Source: Flaccisagitta enflata (taxonomy: Eukaryota). From it: 64,000 nucleotides of DNA. Location of the stretch: the NCBI GenBank assembly GCA_965153355.1, contig OZ231126.1:31248001-31312000 (forward strand), in the 5' to 3' direction. Of the stretch, positions 18,841-63,493 are shown piece by piece; positions within the stretch are counted from its first letter, which is position 1, and the number at the start of each line of letters is the position of its first letter. The notes under the pieces are model-generated. The model was not told the origin of the DNA and made no database searches. It saw only the letters and a list, made by a program, of their open reading frames with translations. The translations under genes were made by a program, and so were the position numbers.

Positions 18841-19439
18841 CGTTAATGACACGCACGCACGTCAATGGCATCTCTCACGTGCATCACTGGAACCATTCAA
18901 CAACGGTCAATTCATTCTCAAGATTAACCTCTTAATTTGGCTCTTATCTTTTGACTCCGTTAGCTACTATAAGTTTCTTTATCCAGCTTTTGCTGTTACA
19001 CGCTCATGTACTTTATGATTTTGCTGAGGCGTAAAAGTTCAAACGTCTCTATAGATATATCTCCCGTGAATTCAGCCATTTTCTACTTAATCGTCGCATT
19101 ATGATAATTCTCTGTTTTTGTCGCTTCCACCTTTCCTTATTTTGTATAAGTCTATCCTGCATGCAGTGTGTCATTGATTGCTCGATTGCGTAGAAATGCT
19201 TTTTCATTTGCGTAAAAATGCCATCGCTTGCTATACTGCATGCAGAGCGTACTTGCTGGCACGATTGAGTACAAATGCCATTGCTTGCTCGATTATTTTC
19301 AAATGCCATTGCTTATACAATTGGTTAAAAGTGTCATTACTTGCTCGATTGCGTACAAACGCATTACATGCTCCACTGCATGCAGTCTGTCATCGCTCAA
19401 TCGATCGCATGCAGTACTCGATTTCCCGGTCGACCGCGC

Positions 19440-20539
19440 GCACTCCGCTATTGCCTTAAGCAGCCTACCATCTAAACTTTTTGAGTTTGCCATTCAGATC
19501 AAAACTTCCGATTTATTGCAAACGGATGAACTTCAGTTTGGATTCAAACGAAAAACCAGCACTAGTCATGCAATCTATTGTCTCAAATCAACTGTCGAGC
19601 ATTTCACTACTCACAACTCAAGGGTCTACGTGGCGTTTCTGGACTGCACGAAGGCTTTTGACAGAATTTCTCATTTTGGTCTTTTCACTGAACTAATGAA
19701 AAGAGGGATTCCCTTATGCATACTTTTATGCCTATTTTTCTGGTATGGGAGTATGTTTTCGGAAGTGAAATGGAGTTCGGAAAGAAGTCGTTCATTTCCG
19801 GTGCCTCTTGGCATAAAGCAAGGGGGTATCAACTCTCCGGATTTCTTTGCATGTTATTTCAACGGGCTAACACAGCTACTACGTCAACTGAAACTTGGTT
19901 GTCACGTCGGTAACCTATTCCTCGGCTCTCTATTCTTTGCCGATGACATTGTCCTTCTTGCCCCAACTCGATCTGCACTTCAACAAATGATAAACTGCTG
20001 TCAAGGTTATTGCAGACAATATGGCTTGGCTTTCAATGCTAAAAAGTCAAAGATAATGATCTTTTCAAAAACGTCCTTTGACAAAAATGCCATCGAGCCC
20101 CTGAGAATTGGAGACACACCTATTGACTGTGTTGACCAAATCAAGTACCTTGGGACCACCATAATAAGTAAGCCCTCTTTTTGTTTCTCACATGAAGATG
20201 ACTTACGTTCCTTCTATAGAGCATCAAACTCGGTTTTGAATCAGGTTGGTTCAGCAAACGAGCCCATACAAATGAAGCTTCTTTACTCGCATTGCGTCCC
20301 ATGCTTTTCCTACGCCTCCGCAGCAAAAGAATATTCCTCGCGACAGATGAACGACTGTACTGTTGCTCTGAATGACGCTATCCGGAAGATATTTACTTTC
20401 CATCGGTGGGAAAGCGTCCGCACATTGAGAGAAGAATTGGGCTACCCTGCCCTAACTGATATTTATGCTCAGGCTAGAAACAGATTTGAAAAATCGCTTC
20501 CTGGCCATCTCAACTCCACTGTTTCGCGTCTATTTCACC

Positions 20540-20619
<80 letters not shown>

Positions 20620-20681
20620 CCGTAGAAACAACATCTCTGGGCTCCTTCCCTTGATTCCACAATGTGGCCAAGGGGAGTCCC

Positions 20682-53680: not shown

Positions 53681-56135
53681 AGAATAAGTACTGCTTAGTG
53701 CGCCTCCAAACATATGTGAAATTGAAAATAGAAATAAAATTCAAAGTATCATTGGTAAGAGAATATTTTTCCTAAAAAGGGAGGGGGGTTGAGAGACTGA
53801 GGGGCGCTAATTAGAAGGTGGTGCTAATTAAAGGGAGGGCTCAAAGTGTCAGTGTTCGAGAAAGGAAGACGTCAAAGGGAGATTGTGTCCAAAGTTTAAA
53901 GGCGTCTTGTGAGCATGCACGAAGAGGATTCTGTCTACAAAGGAGAAAAAAACTTGCAACGACTATTGTAGGATTTCTTTTCTGAGGAACATGTCTTGAA
54001 TATCAAAACCGTTTCCGAAACTCATAAACGAGGCTATGTGGGAGCCTCATCCGGACTGTGTTCACATTGAGAGCAATATCCCGGATTAGACCAAAAGAAA
54101 GGCAAATAGATCATCCACAGATCAAGTCAGGCCAATGCAATGGTACCATAGCCCTGCTCTGCATACTTTACAGGAGTTCCATCAACAACAAAATTGTACC
54201 CCCCAAAAATCCTGTCCTAACCTGGCTTCTATATGCATCTTAAAAAGGCAACTGTACCTTCAGTTGAATACAGCATTAACGGACCTTCAGGGAGAAAAAA
54301 ATGTATCTCTTACAAGCAGATTTATTCTAAAACTAACTTAGAATATAAAGAGAACGAGTTGAAAAGACCACAGAATTACATCCATTGTCTACAGAGTTCC
54401 TTTACTGAAGTGTCCGCTGGAGCACCTGCAAGTTTAGCTGTATCAAGTAATCAACTCTTCCCCCTTTTCAAATCTTCAATCCTCTCATTTATATCAACAT
54501 GATTTATCTCGTCCATTCTCTCCTCTTCCTTTTCCTCTTTCTTTTTCTCTTCCCCTTCCACCCAACCCCGGAGGGGCCGGCAACCCCCCAAACATGCCGT
54601 AAGAATCGATTTCTAGTCGCGTGCTACGCGACTCTACTACCCACTTTGTCAGTCCATCCGTCAGTCCATCGGTCTGTCGGTCCGTCGGTCCGTCGGTCTG
54701 TCCGTCGGTCCGTCCATCCGTGGGTCCGTCCGTCTGTCACACTTTACTTTTTTTGGGTTTTTGCAGTCTTTGGCCTCACTGCTCCTGCCCAAGTGATCAA
54801 ATGACCTCAAATACGGCCCCTGCCCACCCGCACGCGACTGGGGTAGCCGTGTATCCGGCCTTGTTTTTTATTGTTTTGCATAGATTAATGTTCAACTAAG
54901 AAGAATCTGCTGCCAAATCAATTCCTACGATCCAAGAAGATAGCTAGAATTAATTTTGGTAATATCAAAAATTAGGAAAACCAGATTGCAATGGCAATCG
55001 TCACATAAGAGGTTAGGGAAATATTTGATTGTTCTTAACAAAGCGCAGCAAAGGATATCTCATCAATGTTTCACTTCTTCCTCAACCGCACTTTGACATG
55101 CAACAGGGCCGGCTACACGGCTACCCCAGTCGCGTGCGGGTGGGCAGGGGCCATATTTGTGATCAGTGGAGCATTTGGGCAGGAGCGGTATAGCCAAAAA
55201 CCCCATAAACGCTGAAAAAGTAAAGTGTGACGGACCGACGGACCGATGGACCGACAGACCAATGGACCAACGGACCGACAAAGCGGGGTGTAAAGTCGCA
55301 TAGCACGCGACTAAAAATCGGTTTTTGTTAGTAATCATAGATTACAAATTGATCAAAGAATTTCTCGGTGACTTTTCCTGACTGTAAAAAGCTGAAAAAT
55401 CAAAACTAAGAGGTAGAATTTGTTCAATAGAAAATAGTTGCACCCTAAAAGAGTCCTTTAGACATTATTAGCCTCCTTCCTCCTCTGCCCCCAACCACCC
55501 GGATGTAATTCCCATTCTCCCTTCCTTTTCAGCTTTTAACTAAAATCATAAATAGTTGGAAAAACGGGTAAAAATCCAAATGTGGAAACCCCGAGAGGAA
55601 TAACAGATGAAATGAAACCATAAACATAAAAAAAGAAGGAAATAAAACAACAAATAAAATGAAAACAAACCGGGAATCCGCGACTAAAAGCTTGGAAAAC
55701 CACCTAATCCTCTTTGTTTTCTAAGTAGGATTATACTCCACAATAACGGATGTCAAGGTCTTACCAATTCTTTTTGTTATAGGTGGATTTCCGCATTACC
55801 AATATAAGAAACAACTAAAAAAAACTGTAGGGTTAGAAGTTCTATTTGGATAGCGTATATGGTTTCAATGGTATTTTGCGCCTTATTTTTTTTTTCTTTT
55901 TTTATGAAAACATAGCTTATCCGAGCGTTTTTAAGAAAACTATGGCTAGAAAAGTCTGCTGGAAAAAAGAATGAAAAAAAGCGCAATAAAAGCTTACTGT
56001 AAGAACCGTTTGAAATCGTTTTCGATTTTGTCTTCTGCTTTATAATCAAAAAACTGCTCGACCTGGAGATTTGTGAAAATGTAGGGTAATACCCAAGCCC
56101 GGGCCATTTTGCATTTTCTTTAACAATACAATACA

Positions 56136-56656
56136 TGTGCGGGCTCGCGTGAGCAAGCACTGTTCATTTGTTTTAAGACTTTACTTTGCCTCTAAAAACT
56201 TACCTTTTAGTAGCGCCCTCTATTAATAGTTCACCGCTTCGAAGTGAACGGAAACTAAGTTGGATTGTTTGATACATGCCAAGAGATTTTCCTTATAAGA
56301 GCGTTTACCTGCTGTTTAGTCCATTCGCTCATCTTTATTCCTTCGCTTTAATCGTTTATTCATGATTAAGGAGTAAATAAGCCTACTAATGTTACTCTTT
56401 TTCCATCCTTTGCAGATTAATGATGAATTGATTAGCATTACTTACCCTCTGGTTCCCTGAATGCCGAAATGAGTTGAAGTTTCAGGTACTAAGCCTTCTA
56501 AAGATGTAAATTGATGTGCTAACGATTGCCGTTAATTATTACTGCTCATTGCCTAAGTTGTTAATGATTACTAATGATTGCTAATAAATTATTTCAGACC
56601 GTTAATTGCGTCGTCACTACTACTCCGGTTAGTAAGAAAGGGAGCGAGCGGGCACA
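56136..56656 (+). repeat. 5' LTR
   Basis: Matches 61765-62285 except 2 substitutions seen (gact/gacc; caccg/catcg). AATAAA at 56583. Confidence 0.96.
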
Positions 56657-56669
56657 AGCTTCAACTCAT
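56657..56669 (+). promoter_or_regulatory. Putative non-tRNA (self-priming) primer-binding site agcttcaactcat
   Basis: Abuts the 5' LTR, lacks TGG, and is complementary to LTR 56469-56481 (atgagttgaagtt) with one G-U pair. Confidence 0.55.
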
Positions 56670-56791
56670 CGCTTTGCTGGTTGTCGTCGGCGCCGAGCCC
56701 CGCTGACGTCATTGGTGGCGATGTTACGATGGATGTCAAGAGCTACGTCCTCTGAAGTTTAACGTCGGAACCGATTCCCGCCGACGTAACG

Positions 56792-57223
56792 ATGGACGTC
56801 AAGAGTCACGTCCTTGGAATTTCAAAGTCGGAACCGATTCCAGCCGACTCAAAGATGGGCGTCAAGAGTCACGTCCACCAAGCGATGGATCGGCATCAGC
56901 TTCCTGCCATCTATCAACTACGCCAAGATTCTCTTCTCTCCGCTACGACGCGTTCGCCGGAGACAACCCAAGAAATTTATCACCTTTTTTGTGCTGCTAA
57001 CAACGCCATCAGCTATACCGTTGTCACGCTGCAACTCCAAGACATTTCCTACACATTGTGGGAATATTTCTACGTCGTCATCGAGCCTTACCGTCTCCTT
57101 TTAGAAGAGACACGCCGTTTCATTAATGGACAGTCGCCATTTTGTTTGATGCATTTACCAAACCTTTCCTCTACAATGCTGCCTTCGGCAATGAGCAAGA
57201 GTCTCATGCCACTACGACGATGA
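56792..57223 (+). CDS. LTR-element ORF1, 143 aa, unknown function
   Basis: ATG-initiated. N-terminus comes from a 63-bp repeat. Its TGA overlaps the ORF2 ATG. Confidence 0.5.
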   Translation: MDVKSHVLGISKSEPIPADSKMGVKSHVHQAMDRHQLPAIYQLRQDSLLSATTRSPETTQEIYHLFCAANNAISYTVVTLQLQDISYTLWEYFYVVIEPYRLLLEETRRFINGQSPFCLMHLPNLSSTMLPSAMSKSLMPLRR

Positions 57224-59412
57224 ATGGCCAGGAAGAGGATGAAAGTGGCGGTGGTGTTGACATCAGTCTAAGAGAAAGTGGCGGCGACGGCGTTCTCGAT
57301 GGTGGAGGCGGCGGCCATGATGGTGGCGGCAGAAGTGATGGAGGCGGTGGAGATGTCGATCGCCAAGTCGCGCACAAGGCATCGACGGAAAATCAACATC
57401 GTCCTCTTTATTCAGATCTCTTTGCCACTCACTTAGAATCTGATAACAACAACGACGATCAAGAAAGAAAAGAGTCGTTGTTAGGAAGACTTGAAAGAAA
57501 AATAAACGAAATCCTGAAATTGGATGAAGAAATGAATTTCCGTTTTACGATGAAAAAAGCGGATTTGGAAGAGGCAATGGAAAATGAATTGGACTCTATC
57601 TACGAAGCCATGATGGACGGAGATAGTGAGAAAATTGGCATCATTATGATTAAGATTAAGGAGGAGATGAACAAATTCATGTTGGCGATGGAGAGAGAGG
57701 GAAAAGAAAGATCTGGAGTGAAAGAGAGGAAGAAGGAAGGAAAAGAAATCTTCGACGTCTCATGCATGACCGCCTCACAACCGGAAGTGCCTCCAGTCCC
57801 ATGTCCATCGATCAACGAAGAAAATCAGCTTCTCACTGCCACCAACTTTTCTCTCCCTTCACGTCCTGTTCATCATTCTGACGAGCCTCTTCTTTACGAT
57901 TCATCTTCTTCATCATCTACGTTTTTGAATTTGTCGGCATCTCTCACAAATTTGCCGGCACCTGCCAAGATTTTGCCGGCACCTGCCAAGATTCAGCCGG
58001 CACCTGTTAAGAACACGCCGGCCCCTGCTAAGATTACGTCGGCACCTGCTATGACTTTGCCGGCATCTGATACGAATTCATCTGCAGACTACCAAGCATC
58101 TTTGATCGACCATTCACGTCCGTCGACATCATCTGTAGACCACCAAGCTCCTTCAGTCAATCATCCGTTGACATCATCTACAAACCGCCAAGCTTATTCT
58201 GTCGACCGTCGGTCATCATCTGCAGACCGCCTAGAATCATCTGACGGCCGCCCGTCGTCATCTGGAGACATCCACGTACCTTCCTTCCATCTTCAGTCAT
58301 CATCTGAAGACCACCAAGTATCATCTGTGGATGAACAAGCCTTTACTTTCGATCGTCGGTCATCATCTGTAGACTACCAAGCTTCTTCAGTAAATCATCT
58401 GTTGACAACATCTACAGACCACCAAGCTTATTCTGTCGACCGTCAGTCATCTGCAGACCCTCAAGAATCATCTGACGATCGCCCGTCGTCATCTGAAGAC
58501 ATCCACGTCTCTTCTTTTCATCTTCAGTCATCATCTGAAGACCACCATGTATCATCTGTGTATGAACAAGCCATCACCTTCGATCGTCGGTCGTTATCTG
58601 TAGACTGCCAAGCCTCCGTCAGTCATCTGTTGACATCATCTACAGACTACCAAGCTTCCTCTATCGATCATCGAACATCTGCAGACTACCAAGATTCATC
58701 TGCAGACGGCAAGGATCCATCTGACGGCACTCCGTCGTCATCTGGAAACTACAAAGCCTCTCCTTTTCTCCCTTTTTTCCGAGGGACCACTCGTCGGGAA
58801 CTTTGCGACGAGAAGACTTACGCGAGGGCAAAAAAGCGAAAGAAGAAGAGATTTTTTCCCTCTCAACTTTTCTACGCCAGAAAAGAAAAGAAAAAGCCGC
58901 GTCTTCGACGTTACGAGTTCGAGTCCAGGAGGAGAAAAAGAAAAAAGAAAAGAATTCTCCGTCTCCACTCGAAAAACGGCCTACTAGACCGTACCCCGAA
59001 AAACAACCACGCTTCTGCGGGCCACAACCACGCTTCTGCGGGCCACAACCACGCTTCTACGGGCCACAATCACGCTTCTACGGGCCATCCTTACGACTCT
59101 ACGGGCCATCCTTACACTTCTACGGGCCATCCTTACGCTTCTAAGGGCCATCCTTACGACTCTACGGGCCATCCTTACGCTTCTACGGGTCAAGATATTC
59201 TCGGCAGCTACGCTACGATATTCTCGGTCACTACGCTACGATATTCTCGGCCGCTACCCCACGAGATTTCCGGCCGCCACCCCACAAGATTCCCGGCCGC
59301 CACCCCTCAAGATTCCCGGATGCCACCCCAAGCCTTTTCCCGCGGCAACGATGTCACGGGCCTTCCGATTACGTTACCGACGCTACGTCATCGTGAAGGG
59401 AGGAAAAAGTGA
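57220..59412 (+). CDS. LTR-element ORF2, 730 aa from the first ATG: Gly-rich N-terminus, helical/coiled-coil block, Ser/Asp-rich repeats, basic NLS-like clusters, heptad repeats
   Basis: 2.2-kb uninterrupted frame. No CCHC knuckle, protease, RT (YxDD) or integrase motif recognised. Confidence 0.7.
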   Translation: MNGQEEDESGGGVDISLRESGGDGVLDGGGGGHDGGGRSDGGGGDVDRQVAHKASTENQHRPLYSDLFATHLESDNNNDDQERKESLLGRLERKINEILKLDEEMNFRFTMKKADLEEAMENELDSIYEAMMDGDSEKIGIIMIKIKEEMNKFMLAMEREGKERSGVKERKKEGKEIFDVSCMTASQPEVPPVPCPSINEENQLLTATNFSLPSRPVHHSDEPLLYDSSSSSSTFLNLSASLTNLPAPAKILPAPAKIQPAPVKNTPAPAKITSAPAMTLPASDTNSSADYQASLIDHSRPSTSSVDHQAPSVNHPLTSSTNRQAYSVDRRSSSADRLESSDGRPSSSGDIHVPSFHLQSSSEDHQVSSVDEQAFTFDRRSSSVDYQASSVNHLLTTSTDHQAYSVDRQSSADPQESSDDRPSSSEDIHVSSFHLQSSSEDHHVSSVYEQAITFDRRSLSVDCQASVSHLLTSSTDYQASSIDHRTSADYQDSSADGKDPSDGTPSSSGNYKASPFLPFFRGTTRRELCDEKTYARAKKRKKKRFFPSQLFYARKEKKKPRLRRYEFESRRRKRKKKRILRLHSKNGLLDRTPKNNHASAGHNHASAGHNHASTGHNHASTGHPYDSTGHPYTSTGHPYASKGHPYDSTGHPYASTGQDILGSYATIFSVTTLRYSRPLPHEISGRHPTRFPAATPQDSRMPPQAFSRGNDVTGLPITLPTLRHREGRKK

Positions 59413-60343
59413 GAAACTAGTTCAATTTGTATCTTCGGCAACTTCGCTTAATTCGATGAAAAGAAGACGCCGTTTTTGTGATAACATTTTGATTGATGTT
59501 CTTAGTACTCTCACTCTTTTTAGCTCTTTCTTGTCAGTTAGTTCATGCTGCCATTGATTTTTGCATTTTGTTCTTCAAATTTGCCGACGTGAAAATGTGT
59601 CTCAAGTCTCAATGAAAGCTGCTCTAGTGATAAAAGAGCCCGCCGTTATGATATGAAATATTGCTCCAGTAAGGAGCCTTTGCCGTTGCTCCAGTGTAGA
59701 GCTTACGCCGTTTAGTTTAAGATTATGATTCGACGCTCCTGCATGCTGCTCAAGAACGAGTTTACGCGTCAACGATTATTCTCTGCACCTCCGCTCCTAC
59801 AGACTTTTCCTTCTCTCTCCAACTGCAACTCGCCGACGAGCTTTGGTTCTTTGGGTTAGAATAATATGGAATGAAGGAAGTGGGGGGTGGGAGGGGGAAA
59901 AAGTTTTTGTTTGCGTTAACAATTACATTGCGATTAATTACGCTTACTTTTTCCGTTTTAAGTTTCAAGCTTTTTCTTTGCATCTACTACACAATGCAGT
60001 TAGAGGTGCTTTAATTTTTTACATTCATAAATTATCAACGATCATTTTGATGCTCAAGAGAGTATCATTTTTGAATGTAATTATCATATTTCCCCTTTTC
60101 ACGATTACTCTTTTCATGATACGATCCCGAGTAATTTTCCATTGTTGATTTGCGCATCAACAACCACCTTGAAGTCAATGATGCTTATAAGCGTTTTCTT
60201 ACGTTCATGATAATAAGCAAGTTAAGATTTCATGTACATTCTCTCTTGTTGACAAAGAATTTGCGTCAACAACTACCCTAAAGTTTACGATGCTTACATT
60301 TATCTTTTCCCTATTGTTGACAAAGATTTTGGGTCAACAACTA

Positions 60344-60955
60344 CAGTACCTTCCGAGCAAACCCGGCTAAAACTGGAGGATTAATTTTTTTAATTTTATT
60401 TCCCAAACTTTATTTTTTGTATATAATTTAATTAAAAGATACTTAATTGCTTGAACATATTTGGCTGTCAAAAAAAATAACTTGTGAAATCAAAGTGCAT
60501 GAGGACATCAATATTAAGTGTTCTAACCCAGACCATTGGATTAGGCAGAAAATTTTATGTATCCTAGATTACAAGAACAGCTCAGTCAGATAATTATTTC
60601 AGATTTTACAGCCATTTAAAGTTTTTAAGGACAATTGTCTCAAAATAATTTAGGACAATTGTCCTTAAAAACTTTGAATGGCCATAAATTCTGAAGTAAT
60701 TGTTTGACTGAGCTGTTCTTGTAGTCTAGGATAGGTAAAATTTTCTGCCGAATCCAATGGTCTGGGTTAGAACACTCAATATTGATGTCTTCATGCACTT
60801 TGATTTCACGAGTTATTTTTTTTGACAGCCAAATATGTTCAAGGAATTAAGTATCTTTTAGTTAAGTTTGATGCAAAAAATGAAGTTTGGGAAATGAAAT
60901 TAAAGTAACAAAAATTAACCCTCCAATTTTAACCGGGTTTGCTCGGAAGGTACTG
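60344..60955. mobile_element. Fold-back Tc1/mariner-type MITE nested in the LTR element
   Basis: TIR cagtaccttccgagcaaacccgg, TA TSD, ~610-bp imperfect palindrome. Confidence 0.92.
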
Positions 60956-61146
60956 TACATCCAAGTTTAAGATTTTCATTTTGATTAATTCTTTTTTGTT
61001 TGAGAACGGAATTTTCCCCTCTTTAAAATCGTGACTGCCCCAATCTTTCCCTCACGATCTTTTCACTTTAAAGTAGGATGGGTAATTAATTCCCTAAAGC
61101 ATTTGATAAGATAAAGAGAATTATTTCAGGCATTGCGATGCTCTAC

Positions 61147-61710
61147 CTTTTGGCCTTTTGCTTTCATGCTTTCAAGTTTGGCCTTTTGCTTTCATGCTTT
61201 CAAGTTTGGCCTTTTGCTTTCATGCTTTCAAGTTTGGCCTTTTGCATTCATGCTTTCAAGTTTGGCCTTTTGCTTTCATGCTTTCAAGTTTGGCCTTTGG
61301 CTTTCACGCTTTCAAGTTTGGCCTTTTGCTTTCATGCTTTCAAGTTTGGCCTTTTATGCTTTCAAGTTTGGCCTTTTGCTTTCATGCTTTCAAGTTTGGC
61401 CTTTTGCTTTCATGCTTTCAAGTTTGGCCTTTTGCTTCCATGCTTTCAAGTTTGGCCTTTTGCTTTCATGCTTTCAAGTTTGGCCTTTTGCTTTCATGCT
61501 TGGCCTTTTGCTTTCAAGTTTGGCCTTTTACTTTCATGCTTTCAAGTTTGGCCTTTTGCTTTCATGCTTTAAAGTTTGGCCTTTTGCTTTCATGCTTTCA
61601 AGTTTGGCCTTTTGCTTTCATGCTTTCAAGTTTGGCTTTTTGCTTTCACGCTTTCAAGTTTGGCCTTTGGCTTTCACGCTTTCAAGTTTGGCCTTTGACT
61701 TTCATGCTTG
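61147..61710. repeat. 28-bp minisatellite ggccttttgctttcatgctttcaagttt, ~20 units
   Basis: Head-to-tail units without spacers. Confidence 0.95.
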
Positions 61711-61754
61711 CGCTTACGATTTCTCATGCTTGCGCTGGACATGTTTTACAGTCC

Positions 61755-61764
61755 AGGTGGGGGG
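61755..61764 (+). promoter_or_regulatory. Polypurine tract aggtgggggg
   Basis: Purine-rich run immediately 5' of the 3' LTR; sets element orientation as +. Confidence 0.85.
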
Positions 61765-62285
61765 TGTGCGGGCTCGCGTGAGCAAGCACTGTTCATTTGT
61801 TTTAAGACCTTACTTTGCCTCTAAAAACTTACCTTTTAGTAGCGCCCTCTATTAATAGTTCATCGCTTCGAAGTGAACGGAAACTAAGTTGGATTGTTTG
61901 ATACATGCCAAGAGATTTTCCTTATAAGAGCGTTTACCTGCTGTTTAGTCCATTCGCTCATCTTTATTCCTTCGCTTTAATCGTTTATTCATGATTAAGG
62001 AGTAAATAAGCCTACTAATGTTACTCTTTTTCCATCCTTTGCAGATTAATGATGAATTGATTAGCATTACTTACCCTCTGGTTCCCTGAATGCCGAAATG
62101 AGTTGAAGTTTCAGGTACTAAGCCTTCTAAAGATGTAAATTGATGTGCTAACGATTGCCGTTAATTATTACTGCTCATTGCCTAAGTTGTTAATGATTAC
62201 TAATGATTGCTAATAAATTATTTCAGACCGTTAATTGCGTCGTCACTACTACTCCGGTTAGTAAGAAAGGGAGCGAGCGGGCACA
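61765..62285 (+). repeat. 3' LTR
   Basis: Direct repeat of 56136-56656. Confidence 0.96.
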
Positions 62286-63493
62286 ATACACTATACAATT
62301 TTTCTAAGTATTGGGCCAATACAATACCATACCAATACAATACAATATCTTAAAGAATTGTACCCAATACGTAATAATATTTTAATTCACTTAATAAAAA
62401 ATCTTTGTTGGATCTTCAATGAATAGTTGAAGCTCTAACTAATTTTCTTTTTATATGCTTGATCAAAAAAGATTTTTTGAATATTTTCTTAACTTTCATA
62501 TATCAATATTTTTTTTCATATACTTTTTATCTTTGCCTCTTTAGGTAAGTCTCTTTGTCTGTGTTTGTCCTTGTGTGTGTGTGTCTGTGTGTGTGGGTGT
62601 CTTTCTCTCTCTCTCTTTTTCTTTTTCCCTTTTTCTCCGTTATCATCTCTATTTATCTGTTTGTCAGTCTGTCTGTCTGTCTGTCTTTCTGTCTATCTGA
62701 CTGTCTGTCTGTCTGTCTTTCTCTCTCTTTCTCTCTCTCTGAGTGTACTGACCCAGGATTAGATCTGAGAGAAAATCAATCTTTCCTCCTCCTCATCCTC
62801 TTCATCTTCCAGATCTCATCCTCTTCTTCTTCATTTTTTTTCTGCACTTCCTAAAAAATTGATCTCTCCTGATCCTCCTCATCCACCTAACCTTATCCTC
62901 TTCCTCTTCCCTACTTTTATTTTTCACCAGTTTGTTTGACCTTCCTAAGAATTCCACTAGTTTCTAAAAAAAAAAAAATATTGTATTGTATTGGGAAAAT
63001 AACAATACCCATAATAAGTATTGGGTAAACCCAATACTTATAAGTATTGTAAATACAATACAATACCCAATACGAATCGCCCCGCCTGTAATACCCCATT
63101 GCTAAGCCCTTGCAGTGAAACGATCTTTCTCTGATGTAACACACTGCCCCCCTCCCCGGTTCACTAAGCAAGAAATAAACAAGTAAAATGTAAGGGAGCG
63201 GACTTTTAGTTTATTTCTTTGCCAAAAATGTTTGAATATTTAAAGACATTTAAACTTAACAGAAAATAAAGTTAAAGTTGAACCGCGCCACGAGAGATGT
63301 CAATGGACTAACGAATTTCATCCATTCTAGGCGTATCTATGTTATTGCCAAATTGGAAATTAAAAAAAAAAAACATGAAGTGACCATCAATTCTTACCCG
63401 TTATAGGCGGATTGTCACTGTTCTAGGATAATAGGGAGGTGTAACTGGACGTAAATGCCTCTTTTTTCTTACTCGCGAGGCAAAAAAAATATA

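What the first reader, a model, noticed from the sequence alone, without database searches (positions are those of the whole stretch)
56469..56669. Self-priming signature: PBS is complementary to the element's own LTR, not to a tRNA
Seen: 56656-56669 (aagcttcaactcat) pairs with LTR 56469-56482 (atgagttgaagttt) over 14 bp with a single G-U, right up to the LTR edge, and there is no TGG. Established: Tf1/sushi-group elements prime minus-strand synthesis with the first ~11 nt of their own mRNA annealed to the PBS. Inference: tgAgtt resembles an initiator, and a start near 56469-56472 would give a 10-13-nt self-primer. A TATA-like ttataag at ~56293 is a competing promoter.
Basis: partly seen in the sequence, partly recalled or inferred. 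Interest (0 to 1): 0.8.

Follow-up and report, generated by a model that had tools for sequence, protein, structure and literature searches.

The report
Self-priming signature in an LTR retrotransposon
A young LTR retrotransposon without enzyme genes carries, exactly where a tRNA primer site would normally sit, 11 bases that pair perfectly with a stretch of its own LTR; this fits the already known "self-priming" way of starting reverse transcription, so it is probably a new example of a known trick and not a new mechanism.

Summary
56469-56479 (ATGAGTTGAAG) is the perfect reverse complement of 56659-56669. With one G-U and two A-U pairs the helix reaches 14 bp (56469-82 / 56656-69). It lies in a complete, young LTR retrotransposon (56136-62285): 521-bp LTRs with 2 differences, TG..CA ends, a 5-bp target duplication ATACA, and a polypurine tract.

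The paired site starts 2 nt after the 5' LTR, and the first TGG is 22 nt away. In shuffles anchored at that position, an 11-bp perfect helix occurs in 10 of 5000. In real sequence about 3 positions in 10,000 give such a match. Chance is therefore unlikely but not negligible.

The element meets the published in-silico criterion for self-primers, and RNA folding pairs the two sites.

Four things remain untested: the transcription start, conservation or covariation between copies, host tRNAs, and the autonomous partner. No genome is held and only assembled contigs could be laid. The only TATA box (56294) points to a start near 56323, not 56469.

The element has no pol, so it cannot be placed in the Tf1/sushi clade.

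Verdict: a probable new member of a known mechanistic kind, of modest interest.

The parts
56131..56135 (.). Left copy of the 5-bp target-site duplication (ATACA).
   Evidence: flanks. In one search table 7, 23 X1 contigs run up to 56135 and continue with the sequence that follows the right duplication, which is an empty-site form.
56136..56656 (+). 5' LTR, 521 bp, TG...CA.
   Evidence: It is 99.6% identical to 61765-62285, with differences only at 56180 and 56234.
56294..56299 (+). TATAAG, the only TATA-like box in the LTR. An Inr-like CCATTC with A at 56323 lies 29 nt downstream. This is the competing core promoter.
   Evidence: motif scan. Its function is inferred only.
56469..56479 (+). 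Proposed self-primer: 11 nt perfectly complementary to 56659-56669.
   Evidence: Its role as primer, and as the RNA 5' end, is inferred.
56480..56482 (+). Three further nt that can pair with 56656-56658 (one G-U, two A-U).
   Evidence: pair probabilities 0.99, 0.91 and 0.69.
56583..56588 (+). AATAAA, the likely polyadenylation signal. It would put the R/U5 border near 56600-56615.
   Evidence: The border itself is inferred.
56657..56658 (+). 2-nt spacer (AG) between the LTR end and the perfect complement.
56659..56669 (+). Primer-binding site, complementary to the element's own LTR. There is no TGG.
56756..59412 (+). Family-specific open reading frame with no known domain. In this copy it lies in two frames (56756-57223 and 57127-59412). 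A related copy (P0002) reads through in one frame. It contains 63-, 231- and 21-bp tandem repeats.
60342..60957 (.). Nested foldback, MITE-like insertion: a 616-bp palindrome with 89% arm identity, and TA at both ends.
61149..61709 (+). 28-bp tandem array (about 21 copies) upstream of the polypurine tract.
61755..61764 (+). Polypurine tract AGGTGGGGGG, abutting the 3' LTR.
   Evidence: In one search table 7, an X19 RNA contig crosses this junction.
61765..62285 (+). 3' LTR.
62286..62290 (.). Right copy of the target-site duplication (ATACA).

Best explanation
56136-62285 is a recently inserted, high-copy, non-autonomous LTR retrotransposon. It has LTRs, a primer-binding site (PBS), a polypurine tract and one family-specific ORF, but no protease, RT, RNase H or integrase.

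Its minus-strand DNA synthesis is most likely primed by its own RNA, as in Tf1. The proposed steps are:
1. An 11-nt segment of the R region (56469-56479, AUGAGUUGAAG) folds back onto the PBS (56659-56669), which lies 2 nt downstream of the 5' LTR.
2. The RNase H of a partner element's reverse transcriptase cuts after 56479.
3. The released 3' OH is extended through the AG spacer, U5 and R.
4. The strand transfers then follow as usual.

What is shown: the element's anatomy, the complementarity, its improbability at this exact position, and its formation in predicted folds.

What is inferred: that the RNA starts at or near 56469, that cleavage occurs, and that a Tf1/sushi-like partner supplies the enzymes.

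An inference favours an 11-nt primer whose 5' end is at 56469. The pairing stops sharply on both sides (A/C mismatch 56468/56670; G-U at 56480/56658). This is what repeated copying of the PBS from a primer of exactly that extent would leave. I put about 0.65 on self-priming in general, and about 0.5 on the specific 11-nt primer with a 5' end at 56469.
For: - Complete LTR-element anatomy with near-identical LTRs, a target duplication and a polypurine tract. Empty-site contigs confirm the left boundary (table 7).
- 11-bp perfect complement, 14 bp with G-U, at the PBS position.
- Anchored dinucleotide shuffles reach 11 Watson-Crick pairs in 10 of 5000, and 14 pairs with G-U in 1 of 5000.
- Real-sequence background is 18 of 56,125 positions.
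- No TGG until 56678.
- No tRNA or other Rfam family at either site.
- The minimum-energy and centroid folds of 56469-56700 and of 56323-56700 both close with this helix. Pair probabilities are 0.99-1.0 for 56471-56480.
- It meets the published self-primer criterion of at least 10 bp starting 0-5 bp after the LTR (PMC6317226 methods passage).
- It has the same primer length as Tf1, where the first 11 bases pair with the PBS and RNase H cuts between bases 11 and 12 (PMC7175516 passage).
- The primer lies upstream of the AATAAA at 56583, so it would be inside R as the mechanism needs.
- The family is high-copy: 1174 contigs of DNA run X1 were laid. RNA contigs of three runs touch the LTR, and one oligo-dT contig crosses the polypurine tract/3' LTR junction.
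Against: - No start-site evidence. Only assembled contigs could be laid, and these cannot show RNA ends.
- There is no TATA about 30 nt upstream of 56469. The only TATA box (56294) predicts a start near 56323.
- Inr-like matches are too common to count (13 in 521 bp).
- The two extra duplexes of the Tf1 'pretzel' (PMC10085805 passage) are no better than shuffles: 300 of 500 and 126 of 500 shuffles do as well.
- The whole leader folds no better than shuffles (z -1.2 and -1.3).
- A second chance-level 11-mer complement exists (57187 with 56543), so such matches do arise by chance in this element.
- Host tRNAs and fragments could not be screened.
- Conservation or covariation between copies could not be read. 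One search lists only 40 of 152 variable places. None of the listed ones falls in either site, but that is not evidence.
- No partner with RT and RNase H was seen.
Confidence: 0.65

Rival explanations
1. Self-priming from an internal primer. Transcription starts at the TATA/Inr pair (about 56323). The RNA folds back in the same way and is cut after 56479. A roughly 157-nt 5' fragment, not an 11-nt one, then carries the priming 3' end, or it is trimmed by a second cut at 56468/69.
For: - The only TATAA in the LTR is at 56294, with an Inr-like A at 56323, 29 nt downstream.
- The fold of 56323-56700 still closes the 56469-82 / 56656-69 helix.
- Anecdote: the single X20 RNA contig on the LTR spans 56327-56479. 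Its ends lie 3-4 nt from that predicted start and exactly at the predicted cut (table 8).
Against: - That is one contig of 154 nt at depth 3.9 from one study. Contig ends are not RNA ends, and the tool's own guidance asks for two studies even for a weak hint.
- An X19 contig runs across 56479/80 (56355-56560).
- By recalled retroviral logic, a long RNA primer would be copied past the PBS during plus-strand strong-stop synthesis. That would leave a 3' tail unable to make the second transfer unless it is trimmed.
- The sharp end of complementarity at 56469 argues for a primer 5' end there.
Confidence: 0.12
2. The primer is a host RNA that could not be screened here, such as a tRNA half, another tRNA fragment or another small RNA. 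The LTR complement would then be a coincidence, or a stem that masks or presents the PBS.
For: - Half-tRNA priming exists: 1/2 tRNA-Met and 1/2 tRNA-Ile in copia lineages (PMC6317226 passages).
- No host tRNA set was available.
- No TSS evidence ties the LTR segment to an RNA 5' end.
Against: - It needs the same roughly 0.002 coincidence, or an extra regulatory role, to explain the LTR complement.
- There is no TGG at 0-5 nt.
- No tRNA-like signal on either strand of the element at E up to 10.
- From recall only, and untested: the complement of the PBS does not resemble the conserved cytosolic tRNA whose anticodon it would imply.
Confidence: 0.1
3. Chance complementarity with no function. The element is primed in some unknown way, or this copy's family simply happens to carry the match.
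For: - 10 of 5000 anchored shuffles reach 11 bp.
- A second 11-mer match of no obvious meaning exists in the internal region.
Against: - The match sits at the one position where a primer must bind, starts 2 nt after the LTR, and has the length used by Tf1.
- The family is high-copy and this copy is young (2 of 521 LTR differences). A working PBS is therefore expected, and no other candidate is visible.
Confidence: 0.07
4. A long-range R-to-leader stem that serves packaging, dimerisation or translation control and not priming.
For: Retroelement leaders commonly form long-range stems (recalled). The helix is predicted with probability near 1.
Against: It does not explain what primes at the PBS position, which the stem occupies entirely. 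The leader as a whole is no more structured than shuffles.
Confidence: 0.05

Closest known systems
Tf1 and Tf2 of Schizosaccharomyces pombe (self-primed Ty3/gypsy chromoviruses)
   Same: - A PBS just downstream of the 5' LTR that pairs with an 11-nt LTR-derived segment of the element's own RNA, with no tRNA-type PBS.
- The primer segment lies upstream of the poly(A) signal.
(Tf1 facts come from passages of PMC7175516, PMC5341516 and PMC10085805.)
   Different: - In Tf1 the segment is shown to be the first 11 nt of the mRNA and to be cut by RNase H. Here the start site and the cut are unknown.
- The flanking 'pretzel' duplexes are not supported.
- This element has no gag-pol or chromodomain.
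Vertebrate and fungal Tf1/sushi-group elements (sushi-ichi, Tj1, Maggy, Skippy, Cft-1 and others) with predicted self-primers
   Same: An in-silico signature of the same type. Tj1 was proposed on this basis and then shown to be active (PMC4600332 passages). [quoted passage not shown]
   Different: Membership of that clade is defined by RT/IN phylogeny and a chromodomain. This pol-less element cannot show either.
Plant Tcn1 (gypsy) and TAR (copia; Houba, Osr-1) lineages, predicted self-primers
   Same: It meets the same operational criterion: at least 10 bp complementary to the 5' LTR, starting 0-5 bp after it (PMC6317226). These lineages show that self-priming is not confined to one clade.
   Different: Different host kingdom and no sequence relationship tested. 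Their supplementary lists of self-primers could not be seen because supplements are closed.
Large non-autonomous LTR elements (LARD-like) and TRIMs
   Same: LTRs, a PBS and a polypurine tract, but no enzymatic domains. High copy number.
   Different: It carries a long family-specific ORF that is conserved between copies at 71-82% amino-acid identity. The bivalve TRIM paper found no clear priming mechanism for its elements (PMC6934838 passage).
GalEa 'conserved hairpin site' (copia elements lacking a PBS)
   Same: An unconventional sequence at the PBS position directly after the 5' LTR.
   Different: The conserved hairpin site is a local hairpin of two 9-bp segments after the LTR, with no complement in the LTR (PMC5445492 passages). 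Here the partner lies inside the LTR, 180 nt upstream.

Membership tests
LTR retrotransposon (structural) | Two near-identical direct LTRs ending in TG...CA, flanked by a short target-site duplication. | tested here: met
   521-bp LTRs identical at 519 of 521 positions, and ATACA on both sides. Empty-site contigs are table 7.
LTR retrotransposon (structural) | A polypurine tract abutting the 3' LTR, and a primer-binding position just after the 5' LTR. | tested here: met
   AGGTGGGGGG at 61755-64. The complement starts 2 nt after the LTR.
Non-autonomous LTR element (LARD-like) | No gag, protease, RT, RNase H or integrase domains in a multi-kb internal region. | tested here: met
   Pfam gave no family for the two element ORFs. 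It gave only two sub-threshold matches (E 0.069 and 0.034) among 10 further ORFs. No homologues were found outside the family.
Self-primed LTR retrotransposons (mechanistic class, Tf1 type) | No tRNA-type PBS (TGG 0-5 nt after the 5' LTR). | tested here: met
   The first TGG is at 56678, 22 nt after the LTR.
Self-primed LTR retrotransposons (mechanistic class, Tf1 type) | At least 10 bp perfectly complementary to the 5' LTR, starting 0-5 bp after it (operational criterion of PMC6317226). | tested here: met
   11 bp starting 2 bp after the LTR.
Self-primed LTR retrotransposons (mechanistic class, Tf1 type) | The complementary segment is the 5' end of the element's mRNA. | not testable with these tools
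   Only contigs could be laid. The promoter motifs are ambiguous and, if anything, favour 56323.
Self-primed LTR retrotransposons (mechanistic class, Tf1 type) | RNase H cut at the 3' end of the primer (between nt 11 and 12 in Tf1). | not testable with these tools
   This needs cDNA or RNA end mapping. The one contig ending at 56479 is an anecdote only.
Self-primed LTR retrotransposons (mechanistic class, Tf1 type) | Three-duplex 'pretzel' leader structure. | tested here: inconclusive
   The central duplex forms. The flanking duplexes are no better than shuffles, 300 of 500 and 126 of 500. One stem candidate is partly deleted in the X17 copy, which lacks 9 nt at 56549.
Self-primed LTR retrotransposons (mechanistic class, Tf1 type) | Primer and PBS conserved or co-varying among copies. 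| not testable with these tools
   No genome is held. The metagenome scan gave one unrelated contig and the viral-contig scans gave none. One search lists only 40 of 152 variable places.
Tf1/sushi clade of chromoviruses (phylogenetic) | RT/IN sequences that group with Tf1/sushi, and an integrase chromodomain. | tested here: not met
   The element encodes no pol. The only RT in the window is R2/LINE-like. A partner may meet this feature but was not available, so I do not file the element in this clade.
tRNA-primed LTR retrotransposons | A PBS complementary to the 3' end, or a half, of a host tRNA. | not testable with these tools
   There is no host tRNA set. The absence of TGG speaks against 3'-end priming. 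Halves remain unscreened.

The most novel reading that the evidence does not exclude
The family self-primes from an internal segment of R and not from the RNA's 5' end. Transcription starts at the TATA/Inr pair near 56323, the leader folds back, and a cut after 56479 releases a roughly 157-nt 5' fragment whose last 11 nt prime on the PBS. That would be a variant of self-priming not described for Tf1. It would be carried by a high-copy non-autonomous element of a marine eukaryote, outside the fungi, vertebrates and non-seed plants where Tf1/sushi elements are reported. The only direct hint is one low-depth RNA contig spanning 56327-56479.
Probability: 0.1. Interest if true: 0.6.

Novelty: new member of a known kind. 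Interest (0 to 1): 0.3.

Why it matters
Self-priming has been known since the 1990s. It is routinely predicted from exactly this signature in fungi, vertebrates and plants, so the mechanism itself would not surprise a specialist.

The modest value lies in three points:
- It is a clean, young, high-copy example in a marine eukaryote.
- It sits on an element with no enzymes of its own. An active self-priming partner, whose RNase H can make the cut, should therefore exist in the same genome.
- The sharp 11-nt limits of the pairing give a precise, cheap prediction for 5'-end mapping.

If the start proves to be at the TATA-driven site instead, the case becomes more interesting, because the primer would then be internal to the RNA.

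Tried and rejected
- **Whole genome.** None is held, so I could make no copy census, host tRNA screen or partner search.
- **Earlier notes.** None by place or by sequence.
- **Related copies by DNA pattern.** A 20-mer from the LTR end hit one metagenome contig. Two viral-contig scans gave 0 hits.
- **Other copies in the window.** None.
- **Laying runs.**
  - All four runs are contigs, so there are no RNA starts or ends.
  - Parts of the stretch without RNA cover (for example X19 beyond 56560) say nothing.
  - The X17 RNA contig 56203-56750 spans U3 to leader. It could be an assembly join through R, read-through transcription or DNA, so it does not place the start.
  - None of the 40 listed variable places falls inside either site, but 112 more were not shown, so I do not count this as conservation.
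- **Rfam.** 12 sub-threshold matches, all below gathering. Five of the 12 lie on the palindrome centre. None is a tRNA and none lies at the two sites.
- **ARAGORN.** No tRNA in the window.
- **ORF function.** Pfam gave nothing. The word-index search of residues 1-330 of the 761-aa ORF gave nothing among proteins of 418-1332 aa. The Atlas gave no usable hit. The full HMMER search of the 155-aa ORF gave three family copies and one repetitive 856-aa protein at 34% identity.
- **Pretzel side duplexes.** No better than shuffles.
- **A tRNA-type PBS at the TGG of 56678.** Rejected. It is 22 nt from the LTR, and copies carry indels at 56672-56678 (table 4).
- **Anticodon-arm likeness.** By eye, the LTR segment resembles an anticodon arm. 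From recall, it does not match the conserved cytosolic tRNA with that anticodon. This could not be tested.
- **Papers not held.** Levin 1995, Lin and Levin 1997 and 1998, and Esnault and Levin 2015. Details of Tf1 therefore come from passages in later papers.

Full report
**What is there**

The finding lies in a complete LTR retrotransposon.
- A 521-bp direct repeat occurs at 56136-56656 and 61765-62285. The two copies differ at only two positions, 56180 and 56234.
- Each copy starts with TG and ends with CA.
- The pentamer ATACA flanks the element on both sides (56131-35 and 62286-90).
- A purine run, AGGTGGGGGG (61755-64), abuts the 3' LTR.
- Independent support for the left boundary comes from the DNA run X1. 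There, 23 contigs follow the left flank up to 56135 and continue with the sequence that follows the right duplication (table 7). This is an empty-site form of what is itself a very high-copy flank.
- The LTRs are nearly identical, so the insertion is recent.
- The family is abundant in X1: 1174 contigs were laid on 55900-57900 at 85% likeness or more.

**The internal region**

The 5.1 kb between the LTRs encode no retroelement enzyme.
- Pfam finds nothing in the 761-aa ORF (57127-59412) or the 155-aa ORF (56756-57223).
- Among ten further ORFs, Pfam finds only two sub-threshold matches.
- A full HMMER search with the 155-aa ORF found three proteins at 71-82% identity.
- One of these, P0002, reads through in a single frame from the part matching the 155-aa ORF into the part matching the 761-aa ORF. 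The family therefore carries one long, family-specific, repeat-rich ORF, and in this copy the frame changes between 57127 and 57223.
- No relative outside the family was found.
- The rest of the interior is tandem repeats and a nested 616-bp foldback insertion.
- The only reverse transcriptase in the window (19216-20625) resembles R2 and LINE-1 enzymes, with best E 7.3e-17. It is not a partner.

The element is thus a large non-autonomous LTR element.

**The observation**
- 56469-56479 (ATGAGTTGAAG) is the exact reverse complement of 56659-56669.
- Allowing G-U, the helix extends by 56480-82 with 56656-58, to 14 bp. It then includes the last base of the LTR.
- The perfect 11 bp begin 2 nt after the LTR.
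- There is no TGG until 56678. Copies carry indels around 56672-56678 (table 4), so no tRNA-3'-end PBS is hidden nearby.

**Is it more than chance?**
- Mononucleotide shuffles of the LTR against a 31-nt window: at least 11 Watson-Crick pairs in 1 of 2000, and at least 14 pairs with G-U in 12 of 2000.
- Dinucleotide-preserving shuffles, with the helix required to start within 8 nt of the LTR end: 10 of 5000 and 1 of 5000.
- Real sequence as background: 18 of 56,125 positions in the rest of the window carry an 11-mer with a perfect complement in the LTR. Within the internal region there are two such positions, the PBS site and 57187 with 56543.

An 11-mer match somewhere in the element is therefore expected. 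One at the single position where the minus-strand primer must anneal has a probability of about 0.002.

**Folding**
- The minimum-energy and centroid structures of 56469-56700, and also of 56323-56700, both close with this helix.
- Pair probabilities are 0.99-1.0 for 56471-56480.
- The duplex alone is worth -13.7 kcal/mol (11 bp) or -17.2 kcal/mol (14 bp).
- The leader as a whole is no more stable than shuffles (z -1.16 and -1.30).
- The two side duplexes that make up the Tf1 'pretzel' (passage in PMC10085805) are not distinguishable from shuffles: 300 of 500 and 126 of 500 do as well.
- One candidate stem (56542-54 with 56639-51) is partly removed by a 9-nt deletion in the copy seen in run X17.

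**How it most likely works**

[quoted passage not shown] The present element has the same geometry:
- an 11-nt LTR segment upstream of the AATAAA (56583), hence inside R;
- a PBS 2 nt after the LTR;
- no tRNA-type site.

It also meets the operational criterion used to call self-primers across plant elements: at least 10 bp complementary to the 5' LTR, starting 0-5 bp after it (PMC6317226 methods passage).

The pairing is perfect for exactly 11 nt. It is bounded by an A/C mismatch (56468/56670) and a G-U (56480/56658). I infer that the PBS is repeatedly recopied from a primer of exactly that extent. This points to a primer 5' end at 56469 and a cut after 56479. The AG spacer would be the two extra bases beyond CA on the cDNA end. 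These last steps are inference, not observation.

**What speaks against it, or is missing**

*The start site is unknown.*
- The 'initiator-like' tgAgtt is one of 13 five-of-six matches to TCAKTY in the LTR (the consensus is as quoted in PMC3601003).
- No TATA lies about 30 nt upstream of 56469.
- The only TATAA (56294) lies 29 nt upstream of another Inr-like A at 56323. Promoter motifs therefore lean towards a start 146 nt upstream of the complement.

*The RNA runs do not settle it.* All are contigs.
- An X17 contig spans 56203-56750. It may be an assembly join through R.
- X19 (oligo-dT) contigs cover 56136-56560 and cross the polypurine tract/3' LTR junction. This fits transcription of family members but does not place a start.
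- The single X20 contig on the LTR spans 56327-56479. Its ends lie next to the TATA-predicted start and exactly at the predicted cut. This is curious but rests on one 154-nt contig at depth 3.9 from one study, so I report it only as an anecdote and as the basis of the more novel reading.

*Other tests were not possible.* I could not screen host tRNAs and fragments, read conservation or covariation between copies, or find the partner element. No genome is held, the pattern scans found no relative, and earlier notes do not exist.

**Comparison with what is known**

Self-priming was established for Tf1. It has since been predicted for:
- Tf2, Tj1 and other fission-yeast elements;
- several fungal elements and the vertebrate sushi group;
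- Cryptococcus Tcn1;
- plant Tcn1 (gypsy) and TAR (copia) lineages. [quoted passage not shown]

(Passages.)

The present case works like these. It cannot be filed in the Tf1/sushi clade, because that clade is defined by pol phylogeny and a chromodomain, and the element has no pol.

My two literature searches for self-priming in non-autonomous or invertebrate elements turned up no such report. For one search I saw passages of one paper and only the listing of the other. For one search I saw only the listing. This is not a claim of absence.

**Verdict**

It is a new member of a known mechanistic kind. My confidence is about 0.65 for self-priming and about 0.5 for the specific 11-nt primer at the 5' end. 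Interest is 0.3.

Noticed in passing
window 60342-60957: A 616-bp near-perfect palindrome (arms 89% identical) nested inside the LTR element. TA stands at both ends and the termini begin CAGTACC. It looks like a foldback MITE of the Tc1/mariner type. Its centre gives sub-threshold hits to miRNA-precursor models.
   Followed up: partly
window 56327-56479 (run X20, table 8): The only X20 RNA contig on the LTR ends exactly at the predicted primer cut (56479). It begins 3-4 nt from the TATA-predicted start (56323). It is a single low-depth contig, so this is an anecdote.
   Followed up: no
window 55900-56135 and 62291-62320: The DNA flanking the insertion is itself a very high-copy repeat, with summed contig depth up to about 155,000 in X1. 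It is rich in CAATA-like units. 23 X1 contigs show the uninterrupted (empty-site) form.
   Followed up: partly
window 57187-57197 and 56543-56553: A second perfect 11-nt complement between the internal region (near the ORF frame change) and the LTR. About 1.6 such matches are expected by chance in 5.1 kb, so it is probably meaningless.
   Followed up: partly
window 56573-56593: In the predicted fold the AAUAAA signal sits in the loop of a 7-bp hairpin (56573-79 with 56587-93). This recalls the poly(A) hairpins of retroviral leaders (recalled). It was not tested against shuffles.
   Followed up: no
window 56756-59412: The family ORF has no known domain. It shows a 63-bp coding repeat (MDVKSHVLG... 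units), a predicted helical stretch, and long Ser/Pro-rich 231-bp and 21-bp repeats. It is conserved at 71-82% in three database proteins. In this copy the frame changes between 57127 and 57223.
   Followed up: partly
window 19216-20625: An RT ORF of the R2/LINE type (Pfam RVT_1 at 1.4e-25; best solved relative is an R2 protein at 7.3e-17) that ends in a run of about 30 glutamines.
   Followed up: partly
window 56476-56656 (X1 record 4, table 8): A 516-nt DNA contig matches only 56476-56656, at about 88%, and is unlike the window on both sides. This suggests a related LTR family that shares R/U5 from just inside the primer onward but has a different U3.
   Followed up: no
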